64,000 nt of DNA, taken from positions 268,088,001 through 268,152,000 of the forward strand of contig OZ024740.1 in NCBI GenBank assembly GCA_964016885.1, in the 5' to 3' direction. This DNA comes from Eledone cirrhosa (lineage: Eukaryota). The notes below the pieces were generated by a model. It saw only the letters and a program-made list of their open reading frames with translations. It was not told where the DNA came from and made no database searches. The position numbers were made by a program, and so were the translations under genes. Shown here piece after piece: positions 6,118-47,780 of this stretch (position 1 is its first letter; every line of letters begins with the position of its first letter).

Positions 6118-6155
6118 CCTTTTGAAAAGCAGAAGAACTGCGAAACCGGTAAAGG
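6118..6155 (+). ncRNA. Minimal type-I hammerhead-like motif, U3-A8 core, in a (TA)n-flanked cassette (6084-6276)
   Basis: cctt-TTGAAAA-gcag(aagaa)ctgc-GAAA-ccgg-TA-aagg, then AATAAA at 6161. Stems I and II pair; stem III is palindromic. Confidence 0.75.
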
Positions 6156-6582
6156 AACCAAATAAATATATATATTTTTTTAAATAAGACTCCAGTTTCA
6201 TCTCTTTTTCTTTATACTTTCACCCGTGTAGGACACCTCGGTTATTTTTCATTTTGTAAAAAAACCTCACTTTCTAATATATATATATATATATATATAT
6301 ATATATATATATATATATATATATATATATATATATATATATACATTGGTCTACGGTTCTTATATATTTGATATATATTTATCCTTATCGAACCCTCTTT
6401 GGATTTTAGTCTTCAAATTTATTATTATTACTATATATATATATATATATATATATATATATATATATATATATATATATATATATATATATATGCAAAA
6501 GGCAAACAGAAGTAAAAAAAACAAAAAACGACAGAGTTCAATGTATAAATATGTTAGTTTTACGCTTGATATATTAGGAAAA

Positions 6583-6625
6583 GTGTCTTAACGTTTCGAA
6601 CGCTAGTCGTTCATCAGAAAATACA
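6583..6625 (-). ncRNA. Hammerhead-like motif in a (TA)n-flanked cassette (6494-6793)
   Basis: Minus strand: tttt-CTGATGA-acg(actag)cgt-tc-GAAA-cgt-TA-agac. Canonical core, palindromic AACGTT, weak stem I. Confidence 0.55.
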
Positions 6626-7054
6626 ATGAGAAATTAAAGACGAAATAAAAAAATAGATGAGATTGAGCAGTGTGGCAGAAACGAAAAAGATTTCTATGGG
6701 GAAAAGCAGGTCTATTCGAGTCAACATCTCTTGGAAACCCATTGCGTGTATAAGTGGTTCAGTTGGTTGACTGTTTTAAAGGACGGATATAAATATATAT
6801 ATATATATATATATATATAGAGAGAGAGAGAGAGAGAGAAAGAAAGAGAGAGAAAGAGAGCGATGGATGGATAGGCAGATAGATATAGTTTAGATATAGT
6901 CACGTTTTCATTGTTAACAGCTATCAGTCGTGAGCAAAATCGTGAACTAACACCCTGAACATATACGGTGAGTTAATTCTTTTTTCTAAAATTGCCGGTT
7001 GGTCGCGCTGTTTCATCGCCATTAAGGTATACATTAGAAGACGGACCATATTCG

Positions 7055-7550
7055 ATAATAGTATCTTTATTAGCCTCACAAGGCTGGCATTAAGTAAACA
7101 ATGAAGTCAAACAGGATGATACAGTCTGGGTTTTTATGTTGAAAAATAAACATTTAAAAATAAAACAAAGAAAACTCCGCAAGAGTTGACAGATATCCGA
7201 GGAAAACATCGTGGAGAAAGCCTACTAAAAGCCATGGTCACCCTGACCACTAGGTCTAGTGCCCCCTGCCAGTTTTCCTCCTCTAATTTACGGGCGCACA
7301 CGCAGAGCAGGCCTACACTCGGATCATACTCAACTCTTTCCCCAAGCTTTTTAATAAACTGGTTGGAAGGCAGCACTTCCCTCTCCACTCTTCTAATCAT
7401 CGGAACTAGATGAGTGCGCACATCTCGGACAGGCCCGGTTAACAGCACTTTCATGACTGTAGACTCTACAGTGTAGAGTTTATCGTGAATTGGCAATGCT
7501 TTTCGGTAGTAGTGCAAAGCCAGGGATTTCTGGAAGTTATCAATGTTTCC
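7055..7550 (-). mobile_element. Tx1/L1-type LINE 3' fragment
   Basis: NFQKSLALHYYRKALPIHDKL is zf-RVT-like. T-rich 3' UTR with AATAAA near 7070. Similar to 20273-20560. Confidence 0.65.
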
Positions 7551-7760
7551 TAGACAGAATGTTCTCTGAAAAAGAGTGGCTAGTTGATTTTCGTCGATCA
7601 AGATGGGTGGATAAAATCCATGAGCTTGATTGGTCGCACTTGGGGATCCAGCCGGATCAGTTGCTTCTGACAGGCCCCATTCGAAAGAGTGTATTAGAAC
7701 TCTGCCCCACGTTTCTCTCAAGAAGAAGAAGAAGAAGAAGAAGAGGAAGAAGAAGAAGAA
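7550..7760 (+). mobile_element. RTE LINE 3' fragment with (AAG)n tail
   Basis: RSRWVDKIHELDWSHLGIQPDQL then (AAG)n. Shares CAGCCGGATCAGTTG and TTCTGACAGG with 5790-6062. Confidence 0.7.
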
Positions 7761-8207
7761 ATTTGGCTACAAATCGAACAATTTAAGGGTACGTTGAAGT
7801 CGATTTTATCAACACTCAGTACACGACTGCTACTTTATTTTATCGACTCCAGAAAAATAAAGGTAAAGATGATCGCGGTGGAATTAAAAAAAAAGACGAT
7901 TTGAAGTATGTTTGTACTTAGTCTTTTAAATTACGTTCATTACACAACCTCTTTTTCCATAGCCAACACAAAACTACATGCTTTTACCAGCCAAAGGAAG
8001 GTGACCAGTGATAAGTGCATGGGTGAGTTCGTGCACGGGTGTGTACATGTGTGTATGTGCAATTTGAGACATTTTATATATATATATCTATATGGCGAAC
8101 GGCATCGCCACCATAATTTCAAAACCTGCTTCCATCCGAAGAAAAATACTACTAATAGCTACGTTTTATGCAAATAATGCTTCCTGATTTATGCAAAACA
8201 CCAACAA

Positions 8208-44329: not shown

Positions 44330-44580
44330 GGCAGCACATGGCTTAGTGGATATGATGTTTGGCTTAGAATTGTAAATACATGTGTTCAATTCCCGGTGGT
44401 GCCTTGAGCAAAACGTTTTATTTTACTTTGTTCCAGTCCACTTGGCTGGTAAAAATGAGTTGAACCTGAAGGTCAAAGAGGCAGCCTAGAACAATGAATT
44501 TCTCTGAGAACTACGTTAATGCTAGACGTGTATGCTCAGCCACTTTCTCGAAAATTCAATATACAGACTCTTCTATCCGT
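44330..44580 (+). mobile_element. Degenerate tRNA-SINE
   Basis: TGGCTTAGTGG A-box, GTTCAATTCCC B-box, GCCTTGAGCAAAAC. Confidence 0.7.
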
Positions 44581-44839
44581 CAAACAAGTTGAAAACTTGT
44601 CACACACACATGCATACCCCCCACCCCTCTCTCTCTCTCCCTCTCCCCCATACACATATATATGAGGATCGGCTGAAAAGCAAACATCAAAAAACGCTTA
44701 AAAGCGGTTTATAAATTTTTTTATTTAAATCTAATCTGGTCACACACACACACACACACACACACACACACACACACACACACACACACACACACACACA
44801 CACACACACACACACATATATATATATATATTTACATAT

Positions 44840-45275
44840 GTGTACATACATGTGTGCGTGTTTGTATGTTTCTATATGTGTGTGTGTTTGTTTATACGTA
44901 TGGCTGTGTGTGTTTATATATATACGTGTGTGTGTTTATATATATATATTTGTGTGTGGGGGTTATATGTACATGTGTATATATATATATGTGTGTGTGT
45001 ATTTATATATATATGTGTGTGAGTTTATTTATATATATGTTTATATGTGTGTGTGAGTGTTTGTGCTTGTATATATATATATATATATGTTCAAACACAA
45101 ACACGCACACACACACATATATATATACACATATACATATACCCCCCCACACAAATATATATATATATATATATAAACACACACACGTATATATATAAAC
45201 ACACACACCCATACGTATAAACAAACACACACACACACATATAGAAACATACAAACACGCACACATATATGTAAA
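44840..45275. repeat. Inverted duplication of a compound microsatellite
   Basis: Irregular motifs (TGTTTCTATATG, TTTATACGTATGG, TGTGGGGG) at 44840-45000 recur inverted at 45105-45275. Confidence 0.8.
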
Positions 45276-45399
45276 CACACACACACACACACACACACAT
45301 ATATATATATATATATATATATACATACACACACACACTCATACACACAGCCACTTTACTGTGAAACCCAATTAAACATTTGTTTCATCCCTCTTAAAA

Positions 45400-46600
45400 T
45401 CATTTCGTCACCCTCTCTCAAAATATTACCCCTCTCTCACTAAAACGTTATACCTTTCTCACCTTCTCTATACACCACTATGTCTACATGTCTGTATCTC
45501 ACTAGACCAATATTCTTCCTCTCTAACTAAACCAGCACACTCTCTACACCTCTCCATATCTGACGGCATATCTCACTCTTTATCATTCTCATAATTCACA
45601 GTCTCTCACTAAACCACCAAACTGCCTGTCTCCCTCTATATCCCACTACATACCTCACTCTCTCACAAATCCCCCCTCTCACACTAGATCACCAAATACT
45701 CGCCCCTTTCTATATACCAGTACATACTCCACTCTCTATCACTCTCGTAATTCCCACTCCGTCACTAGCTCATCAAACTCTCTCCCCCTCACTATATCAC
45801 ACTAAATGCTTCACTCTGTATTCCTTTCACAATTACCCCTTTCCCACTATACCACCAAACTTTCTGCCCCTCTCTATATCCCACTACATACCTCACTCTC
45901 TCACAAACCACCAAACTATCTCCTGCTCTTTATATATTCCACTTCATGCCTCACTTTCTCTCACAATACCCACTCTCTCAATAGATTAACAAATACTCTC
46001 CTCTCTATATTCCACTACATACCTCACTCATTTTCCCTCTCTTAGTTTCCCCTCTCTCACTAGGCCGATACACTCTCACCCTTCTCTATAACTCACTACA
46101 TACCTCACTCTCTCTCACACTTCCCCCTCTCTCACTAGACCAACAAATTCTCTTCTGCTCTCTATATCCCATACATACCTCACTCTCACACAATTACCCC
46201 TCTCTATATTCCATTACATACCTCACTCAATTTCCCTTTCTTAATTCCCCTCTCTCATTAGCTCAATAAACTTTCACAACTGTCTATAACCTGCTACATA
46301 CCCCACTCTCTCTTACAATTGCCCCTCTTTCACTAGACCACCAACATTTCTTACCCTCACTATAATCGACTACATACCTCACTCTCTCACACTATCATAA
46401 TATCCTCTCTCTCACTAAACCAACAAATTCACTCCCGCTCTCTATATCACACTCTATACCTCACTCTATCTCACATTTTCCCCTCTCTCACCAGGCCACC
46501 AAATACTCTCCCTCTCTCTATATCCCAATACATACTTCACTCTCTCTCTCTCTCAGAATTCCCCCTCTCTCACTAAACCAACAAACTCTCTCTCCTTATA
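45400..46600. repeat. Old G-depleted minisatellite, period roughly 70-75 bp
   Basis: Recurring CACTACATACCTCACTCTC, CCCCTCTCTCACTA and CACCAAA blocks. Confidence 0.8.
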
Positions 46601-46721
46601 AATGTGCGATATAACCCATACGTACATATGTATATGTATATATGTGTTTGTATATACATATATAGAGATATGTATATATATATATGTGTGTGCGTATGCA
46701 TACTTATATATATATATATAT

Positions 46722-47780
46722 AATATATTTAGAAACACACAGATACATGCGGACACACACATATATACATGAATGCATCCGCACCCAACTGTGAGTTAAG
46801 GGTGCCAACTTCACCGATGTTGCTCAATGAATGACTGGGACAGACCAATTCAGTTGAACTAGACTGAACCAGTATCAGAGTTAAAAATACATTATGAAGA
46901 GAGAAGAAACATTTAGATATAATTAGTAATAAAATGTATCATACCTAAACTGTTCCTAAATTCCTCGACTACGTAGTTTCGTGGCATAAACAAAAACAAT
47001 ATATCATAAAGATATAGAGTCCTTGCGAGGTCTGCCGACTTATCAAGAGGATACCTCATTTTACTAGTCTCAAGAACGCGTCTACACGACGTGAGAAAGA
47101 ATCCCAAAAGGCGGAGGGGGAGATAGTCACGCGATATAACGGTCGAGAAACAGAGCTAAGCCTCTTATAACCCCGAAGAAAATACCACGGAGGCGGAGGG
47201 GGTATTTATATCGAGGCCGTAGAAGAGGTGGTGAAGAAGGCGAGAAGTATGAGTAATGGAAGCTTTCCAGCTGTCCCCACACTTCAAAGATTGCTCGACC
47301 AGAGGGAGTTATTAACAATATATTTAGAAACACACAGATACATGCGGACACACACATATATACATGAATGCATCCGCACCCAACTGTGAGTTAAGGGTGC
47401 CAACTTCACCGATGTTGCTCAATGAATGACTGGGACAGACCAATTCAGTTGAACTAGACTGAACCAGTATCAGAGTTAAAAATACATTATGAAGAGAGAA
47501 GAAACATTTAGATATAATTAGTAATAAAATGTATCATATCTAAACTGCTCCTAAATTCCTCGACTACGTAGTTTCGGTCGTGTAGACGCGTTCTTGAGAC
47601 TAGTAAAATGAGGTATCCTCTTGATAAGTCGGCAGACCTCGCAAGGACTCTATATCTTTATGATATATTGTTTTTGTTTATGCCACGAAACAACGTAGTC
47701 GAGGAATCTAGGAGCAGGTTAGGTATGATACATTTTATTACTAATTATATCTAAATGTTTCTTCTCTCTTCATAATGTAT
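46722..47780 (-). mobile_element. ORF-less PLE-type cassette: tandem plus inverted pseudo-LTRs in (TA)n
   Basis: 46722-46981 is repeated directly at 47318-47576. 46887-47089 is repeated inverted at 47578-47780. Confidence 0.85.
46962..47051 (-). ncRNA. Hammerhead motif with U3-A8 core and long stem II
   Basis: tcctc-TTGATAA-gtcggca...tgccac-GAAA-ctacgtag-TC-gagga. Palindromic stem III. Plus-strand copy at 47616-47705. Confidence 0.75.

What the first reader, a model, noticed from the sequence alone, without database searches (positions are those of the whole stretch)
6118..47705. Recurrent U3-A8 compensatory core (UUGANAA) in independent hammerhead families
Seen: TTGAAAA (6122), TTGAAAA (28805-28813 minus; 33302), TTGATAA (47621) and TTGACAA (11895) each occupy the CUGANGA slot. 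Stems I and II are intact in the first three families; stem I is unclear at 11895. Known: C3-G8 is a tertiary Watson-Crick pair and U3-A8 is a tolerated natural covariation. Inference: a double change repeated across unrelated families points to selection for catalysis, and standard CUGANGA searches would miss these motifs.
Basis: partly seen in the sequence, partly recalled or inferred. Interest (0 to 1): 0.75.

Follow-up and report, generated by a model that had tools for sequence, protein, structure and literature searches.

The report
Penelope hammerheads with swapped core pair
Four of the five cited sites are hammerhead-shaped RNA motifs at the ends of Penelope-type jumping genes, carrying a U-A core pair that is already in print and likely still lets the RNA cut itself; the pair recurs in at least three separate element lineages of this animal genome, and one family outside the window also spread with a mismatched form that may be the stepping stone.

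Summary
All five heptamers are present. Four sites (three families) are type I, dimer-type hammerhead motifs with a U3-A8 core. They lie in the terminal repeats of a Neptune-type and a Hydra-type Penelope-like element (PLE) and in a 595-nt retrozyme-like repeat. 33302 is a damaged copy. 11895 lacks stems I and III and is not a valid hammerhead.

U3-A8 is in print (Perreault 2011; about 1,300 in Schistosoma PLEs, Cervera 2014), and this scan holds 165 earlier notes on it in at least 21 genomes.

Genome-wide, single changes are rare in the two window families counted (63 of 12,285; 4 of 554). A fixed 1.06-Mb sample gave 38 C3-G8, 11 U3-A8 and 4 other cores. The U3-A8 families sit on at least three separate reverse-transcriptase lineages (one clade rejected, p-AU 4e-5), and stem II covaries in one of them.

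Against the simple reading, a 5,216-copy Hydra family outside the window has a C3·A8 mismatch in 23 of 100 listed copies. Its U3-A8 copies mostly nest inside these, so a mismatched core transposed and was probably repaired later. Cleavage is untested. Verdict: real, a known kind, modest interest.

The parts
6118..6155 (+). Family F1 hammerhead motif: stem I 4 bp, core U3-A8 at 6122-6128, stem II 4 bp, GAAA 6142-6145, palindromic stem III, predicted cut after 6151
   Evidence: 12,285 exact-context copies in the genome
6084..6277 (+). 5'-truncated 3' end (pseudo-LTR) of a Neptune-type PLE between (TA)n tracts
   Evidence: other copies run continuously from the RT/GIY-YIG ORF into this repeat (L241, L035, L244, L249)
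28771..28817 (-). Family F2 hammerhead motif, core U3-A8 at 28813-28807, predicted cut after 28775; sense to the ORF, in the 3' pseudo-LTR
   Evidence: 554 exact-context copies
33298..33344 (+). Inverted F2 copy, core U3-A8 at 33302-33308, damaged (GAAG instead of GAAA)
28615..33395 (-). 5'-truncated Hydra-type PLE: frameshifted RT and GIY-YIG pieces at 31230-33062, inverted pseudo-LTR at 33080-33395, (TA)n flanks
   Evidence: 97% identical over 28597-33057 to L121, which has two direct pseudo-LTRs; RWR, DKT, CxCX5C, CxxC and CxH motifs match the Hydra definition
47616..47705 (+). Family F3 hammerhead motif (inverted arm), core U3-A8 at 47621-47627, long stem II loop, predicted cut after 47700
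46962..47051 (-).
46722..47780 (-). Retrozyme-like repeat: about 1.4 units of a 595-nt monomer plus a 5' inversion, ending at (TA)n; no ORF of 120 aa or more
   Evidence: (595-nt spacing in L066, L086-L088)
11890..11924 (+). F4 core-only lookalike (U3-A8 heptamer 11895-11901, 4-bp hairpin, GAAA 11916-11919; no stem I or III), about 30 nt after a TATA-like tract and right after TCAGT
9252..12204 (-). Young Neptune-type PLE (RT and GIY-YIG pieces 9252-11136) with inverted pseudo-LTR 11139-12204 that holds the 11895 site
36122..36160 (+). Second core-only lookalike in a distant relative of the F4 pseudo-LTR; the hairpin covaries, stem I is again absent
8986..9056 (+). Canonical C3-G8 hammerhead motif (core at 8994) of another family; mirror copy at -8825 in the palindrome 8725-9094
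12317..12381 (+). Canonical C3-G8 hammerhead motif (core at 12325) of a separate element, not part of F4

Best explanation
These are type I hammerhead motifs in the pseudo-LTRs of Penelope-like retrotransposons and of a non-coding derivative, in which the core C3-G8 pair has been replaced by U3-A8 in several separate lineages, and they likely still cut the element's RNA slowly, as dimers. Shown: the motifs, their place and orientation in the elements, family-wide fixation of U3-A8, at least three separate RT lineages, self-complementary stem III, and stem II covariation. Inferred: two motifs in one tandem transcript pair through the stem III palindrome and cleave after the NUH triplet, trimming or releasing unit-length RNA for reverse transcription. 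Selection for a 3-8 pair is real but weak. A mismatched core can persist and transpose for a while (C3·A8 in family 20) before a second transition restores pairing.
For: Descriptor hits exceed shuffles in the window (6 against 0.03) and in 106 fixed 10-kb samples (53 against 2.0; 49 of 53 are C-G or U-A). F1: 38 C3-A8, 25 U3-G8 and 0 C3-G8 among 12,285 copies (split counted by hand). F2: 4, 0 and 0 among 554. A fourth family (fam9, 552 copies) is U3-A8 in 100 of 100 listed copies and shows double-sided stem II changes. In an RT tree of 21 fragments, U3-A8 needs at least 3 changes; one clade is rejected, also within Hydra alone (p-AU 4e-5). Cofolding gives the F1 and F3 dimers an intermolecular stem III. 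F1 5' breaks are mildly enriched 0-1 nt from the predicted cut (19 of 69 over 2 of 13 positions, p about 0.007; hand tally, test). U3-A8 ribozymes are reported active in vitro (PMC3088659 section 8).
Against: No cleavage data. Family 20 spread with C3·A8: 23 of 100 listed of 5,216 copies, in both arms of 4 inverted pairs. F4 is young (99% identity, 1,092 candidates) although its motif lacks stems I and III. The F2 dimer did not cofold into the hammerhead form. Monomer folding z-scores are weak (-0.9 to -2.3). The breakpoint excess has no downstream control, is confounded by microhomology, and amounts to roughly 55 copies against more than 10,000. Published PLE minimal hammerheads cleave poorly even as dimers, and Naiad PLEs thrive without canonical hammerheads. 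Only 11 of 21 RTs in the tree have an assigned hammerhead, one of them tentative.
Confidence: 0.7

Rival explanations
1. Near-neutral drift: cleavage hardly matters to these elements. Both C3-to-U and G8-to-A are GC-to-AT transitions in an AT-rich genome, and U3-A8 families are founder effects of single source elements.
For: A C3·A8 lineage reached an estimated fifth to quarter of a 5,216-copy family. F4 and its relative at 36127 lack stem I, yet F4 is young. The window is 30-40% GC over most of its non-satellite length.
Against: The other core letters, GAAA and the stems stay intact in all five U3-A8 families, with compensatory stem changes. No U3·G8 family was found; the one candidate tested was a single copy. 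In family 20 most U3-A8 copies form a clade nested among C3·A8 copies.
Confidence: 0.2
2. One origin of U3-A8, spread between PLE families by exchange of the pseudo-LTR or ribozyme module, so the recurrences are not independent.
For: PLE copies nest and insert beside each other in (TA)n tracts. F2, F3, fam9 and family 20 share a GUC cut triplet, and all five families have G10.1-C11.1.
Against: The five motifs fall in separate sequence clusters. F1 resembles a C3-G8 family in stems I and III (fam12; by eye). In family 20 the change at position 3 happens inside the family.
Confidence: 0.1

Closest known systems
Minimal hammerheads of metazoan Penelope-like elements, U3-A8 variant of Schistosoma mansoni Cercyon (Cervera and de la Pena 2014, PMC4209133; parts 1-2 of 4 read)
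   Same: Type I topology, short stem I, palindromic stem III, position in pseudo-LTRs, inverted pairs, mostly solo truncated copies, U3-A8 core missed by the standard descriptor (about 1,300 hits there).
   Different: Here U3-A8 is mapped to a Neptune-type element, two Hydra-type lineages and a retrozyme-like repeat in one genome. None of the five families has the extra nucleotide after A9. A propagated C3·A8 lineage is seen.
Natural U3-A8 hammerheads (Perreault et al. 2011, PMC3088659; abstract and section 8 read)
   Same: Same covariation; stated there to be active in vitro, citing Przybilski and Hammann 2007 (not held, not read).
   Different: There several scattered examples; here high-copy retroelement families.
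Animal non-LTR retrozymes (Cervera and de la Pena 2020, PMC7229834, passages read; Li et al. 2026, bioRxiv 10.64898/2026.07.22.740005, part 1 of 5 read)
   Same: F3 is a non-coding tandem unit with one type I hammerhead per monomer and PLE-like insertion ends.
   Different: 595-nt unit with a U3-A8 core and a long stem II loop; expression and circularisation not shown.
Hydra and Neptune PLE clades; 'HHR_core' class (Craig et al. 2021, PMC8557442; section 11 and passages read, supplements not opened)
   Same: [quoted passage not shown]
   Different: That paper reports canonical hammerheads for Hydra. Its supplementary file S2 may list core variants that I did not see.

Membership tests
Type I hammerhead ribozyme (F1, F2, F3) | Core N3-UGA-N7-N8-A, GAAA and NUH, with positions 3 and 8 able to pair | tested here: met
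   the copy at 33302 fails at A15.1
Type I hammerhead ribozyme (F1, F2, F3) | Stems I and II closing the core | tested here: met
   4-5 bp stem I and at least 4 bp stem II; covariation shown in fam9, outside the window
Type I hammerhead ribozyme (F1, F2, F3) | Stem III formed in cis or through a palindrome in a dimer | tested here: met
   Self-complementary in all three family majorities; cofolding gives it for F1 and F3 but not for F2
Type I hammerhead ribozyme (F1, F2, F3) | Site-specific self-cleavage | not testable with these tools
   Only an indirect, uncontrolled breakpoint excess for F1
Rfam hammerhead models | Match to a curated covariance model | tested here: not met
   No hammerhead family among 142 matches at E up to 10; the canonical motifs were missed too
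Type I hammerhead ribozyme (F4, 11895) | Stem I and stem III | tested here: not met
   a common G-to-T variant at 11924 restores a stem III palindrome but not stem I
Penelope-like element, Hydra clade (F2, family 20) | RWK-like and DKT motifs, CxCX5C linker, CxxC and CxH, C-terminal GIY-YIG, no CCHH | tested here: met
   against the text; by motif, without reference sequences
Penelope-like element, Neptune clade (F1, F4) | RT plus C-terminal GIY-YIG with CX2-5CxxC linker and CCHH | tested here: inconclusive
   Motifs present, so both are canonical C-terminal-endonuclease PLEs; Neptune versus Nematis was not tested against references, and the label is partly recalled
Non-LTR retrozyme (F3) | Non-coding tandem unit with one type I hammerhead per unit | tested here: met
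   595-nt spacing, arrays of 3 units
Non-LTR retrozyme (F3) | Expressed as circular RNA | not testable with these tools

The most novel reading that the evidence does not exclude
The genome preserves a ribozyme core pair caught in mid-exchange. In one Hydra-type family a mismatched C3·A8 core (or, read in another register, a C3-G8 core lacking N7) amplified to roughly a thousand copies. It was then overtaken by descendants that restored pairing as U3-A8, and the same endpoint was reached separately in other PLE lineages. That gives a dated natural mutational path across the 3-8 pair and a ready set of natural variants to test whether PLE hammerhead cleavage matters for retrotransposition.
Probability: 0.4. 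Interest if true: 0.6.

Novelty: new member of a known kind. Interest (0 to 1): 0.35.

Why it matters
The variant itself is known, so its presence is not news. The comparative picture is what is useful. About a fifth of strict hammerhead hits in a fixed sample of this genome are U3-A8 (11 of 53), so CUGANGA-only surveys undercount. Repeated arrival at a paired 3-8 state in separate lineages argues that PLE hammerheads are under some selection, which is still an open question. The mismatched and core-only lineages show that this selection is loose. Family 20 offers natural C3·A8 and U3-A8 sisters for a direct rate comparison.

Tried and rejected
Rfam scan: no hammerhead hits, canonical or variant.

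The idea that the canonical motif at 12325 is F4's real ribozyme was rejected: no other F4 copy has it downstream.

The idea of a U3·G8 family (fam16) was rejected: one copy genome-wide. A second U3·G8 singleton (L165) and a U3·C8 pair (L156, L169) were not followed up.

My first label 'Nematis' for F2 and family 20 was recalled and wrong; the motifs fit Hydra.

Expression: no RNA holder listed. Runs X4-X6 of other organisms gave one or two near-identical low-depth F3 contigs each, likely carry-over; they were not used.

Age tests of C3·A8 against U3-A8 copies in family 20 were borderline: arm divergence 3 versus 10 loci, p 0.056; nearest-neighbour distance 11 versus 13 loci, 15 of 39 left out as short, p 0.069. 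One origin of U3-A8 within family 20 was not clearly rejected (p-AU 0.052), and the endonuclease tree was unresolved.

A splice-dependent stem I for F4 was considered by eye and could not be tested. No downstream control for the breakpoint test was possible because the 3' flank varies. Genome-wide counts for F3 and F4 cores were not run; 51 of 51 F3 descriptor hits in hand are U3-A8.

Przybilski and Hammann 2007, Lunse et al. 2017 and Martick and Scott 2006 are not held, so mismatch rates are recalled only. Lunse et al. may already describe such variants.
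Full report
OBSERVATION. The five heptamers are present. Read as type I hammerheads, +6122 (family F1) and -28813 (F2) have 4-bp stems I and II and a self-complementary stem III. +47621 (F3) has a 5-bp stem I and a bulged stem II with a long loop, and a second, cleaner F3 copy lies at -47046. +33302 is the inverted arm of F2 (301 nt, 98%) and has lost A15.1. +11895 (F4) has the heptamer, a hairpin and GAAA, but no stem I or III. The window also holds canonical C3-G8 motifs at +8994, -8825 and +12325. A strict descriptor gives 6 hits in 4101-48700 against 0.03 per shuffle, with no U3-A8 hit in 100 shuffles. 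Rfam finds none of these motifs, canonical or variant.

WHAT THE SITES BELONG TO. The genome is a 3.0-Gb assembly with the repeat landscape of an animal (inference). F1 is the truncated 3' end of a PLE: longer copies run without a break from an RT and GIY-YIG ORF into the motif. Its linker reads CX4CxxC, which is Neptune-type by motif. F2 sits in the 3' pseudo-LTR of a 5'-truncated element with an inverted arm, and a 97% identical copy (L121) has direct pseudo-LTRs 5.3 kb apart. Its RWR, DKT, CxCX5C, CxxC and CxH motifs fit the Hydra clade as defined in PMC8557442 section 11. F3 is a 595-nt unit without a long ORF, found in tandems and ending at (TA)n, like a non-LTR retrozyme. F4 is in the inverted pseudo-LTR of a young Neptune-type element. 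The motif at 12325 belongs to another element.

F1: 12,285 exact-context copies, of which 38 are C3-A8, 25 U3-G8 and 0 C3-G8. F2: 554 copies, of which 4 are C3-A8 (3 clustered on one contig) and 0 carry G8. These rates are what decay after insertion would give. They show that U3-A8 is the source state, and little more.

THE TEST BY FAMILIES. In 106 evenly placed 10-kb stretches (1.06 Mb) the descriptor gave 53 hits: 38 C-G, 11 U-A, 2 U-C, 1 U-G and 1 C-C, against 2.0 per shuffle (5 shuffles). It misses motifs with long stem III. Clustering 300 relaxed hits from all loci then in hand gave five U3-A8 families (F1, F2, F3, fam9, family 20) and about 20 C3-G8 families, counted by hand. A U3·G8 candidate proved to be one copy. 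fam9 has 552 copies, U3-A8 in 100 of 100 listed, and its stem II changes on both sides in two steps. All five U3-A8 families have G10.1-C11.1, against about 10 of 21 C3-G8 families (hand count; p 0.046, families not independent).

INDEPENDENCE. A tree of 21 RT fragments, 11 with an assigned hammerhead (one tentative), needs at least three changes for U3-A8. One clade is rejected for all four U3-A8 rows and for the three Hydra rows alone (p-AU 4e-5). C3-G8 families are interleaved. Three changes could be gains, a gain with reversions, or module exchange. F3 and fam9 have no assigned RT.

THE EXCEPTION. Family 20 (Hydra-type, not in the window) has 5,216 exact-context copies. Of the first 100 listed, 77 are U3-A8, 23 are C3·A8 and none has G8. 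Four inverted pairs carry C3·A8 in both arms, so it came from the source RNA. In pseudo-LTR trees with positions 3 and 8 masked, the two states cluster strongly (4 changes against 17.7 shuffled, 52 rows). Most U3-A8 copies form a clade nested among C3·A8 copies (98/95; 90/89). In an outgroup-rooted RT tree four U3-A8 copies nest (100/100) above a C3·A8 copy (88/91), with one copy of each state unresolved at the base. C3·A8 copies look older, but only at p 0.056 and 0.069. So a mismatched core transposed, and pairing was probably restored from it at least once; the root is not settled. As 20 of the 23 have G at position 7, the C3 form can also be read as a C3-G8 core lacking N7 followed by an extra A (inference, untested). 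An earlier scan note on this genome describes a mismatched-core Hydra subfamily, probably the same one.

ACTIVITY. Not testable here. Following a lead from earlier notes, I counted F1 copies whose 5' break lies within 12 nt upstream of the predicted cut: 278. Among the 100 listed, I removed 29 indel, duplication or point-mutant rows and merged 2 twins. Of the remaining 69, 19 break 0-1 nt from the cut (expected 10.6; p about 0.007). Positions 2-4 are also raised, microhomology blurs the break, and there is no downstream control, so this is a hint only. Cofolding gives an intermolecular stem III for F1 and F3 but not for F2.

F4. The 11895 motif is fixed in a family of 99% identity. A distant relative at 36127 keeps the heptamer and GAAA with a covarying hairpin, again without stem I. 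Both follow a TATA-like tract by about 30 nt and a TCAGT (initiator consensus recalled). Such partial motifs arise 0.19 times per shuffle of the region.

MECHANISM. Shown: anatomy, context, fixation, separate lineages, covariation. From the literature: C3-G8 is a Watson-Crick pair of the active core (PMC3884650, passages); U3-A8 occurs naturally and is reported active (PMC3088659 section 8); PLE minimal hammerheads act as dimers, slowly (PMC4209133; PMC6765202, passages). Inferred: these motifs trim or release element RNA as dimers, under weak selection that tolerates a mismatched phase.

NOVELTY. U3-A8 in PLE hammerheads, and its escape from CUGANGA descriptors, was published in 2014 with about 1,300 hits. 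The scan holds 165 notes with these words in at least 21 genomes. Searches turned up no paper on repeated origins across PLE clades or on a propagated C3·A8 lineage. Three relevant papers were not held, and supplements were not opened. Verdict: new members of a known kind; interest 0.35. The evolutionary-path reading has probability 0.4 and would merit 0.6.

Noticed in passing
G000 family 20, e.g. L312-L330, L189: Hydra-type family of 5,216 copies in which 23 of 100 listed copies carry a C3·A8 mismatch core that was propagated; U3-A8 copies mostly nest within them
   Followed up: yes
window 36122-36160 (+) and 11890-11924 (+): Two related pseudo-LTRs keep the U3-A8 heptamer, a covarying hairpin and GAAA right after a putative transcription start, without stem I
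   Followed up: partly
window 8725-9094: 370-nt near-perfect palindrome of two back-to-back canonical hammerhead-bearing ends
   Followed up: partly
window 48738-61109: Satellite of 182 copies of a 68-nt unit, 95% matches
   Followed up: no
window 175-3989: 66-nt tandem repeat (58 copies) open in several frames
   Followed up: no
window 24880-27408 (-): 842-aa open frame with RT and PHD finger, a non-LTR retrotransposon piece
   Followed up: no
window 16672-17109 (+) and 35063-35464 (+): GIY-YIG-like fragment, whose relatives sit upstream of a C3-G8 hammerhead family, and a fragment resembling a restriction-like endonuclease (recalled motif; no Pfam hit)
   Followed up: partly
L291 and other rows: Some F1 copies have internal deletions that remove most of the hammerhead up to the predicted cut site
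   Followed up: no
L189, L220, L176: Other short tandem hammerhead repeats (311-nt and about 467-nt spacing) with C3-G8 cores, retrozyme-like
   Followed up: no
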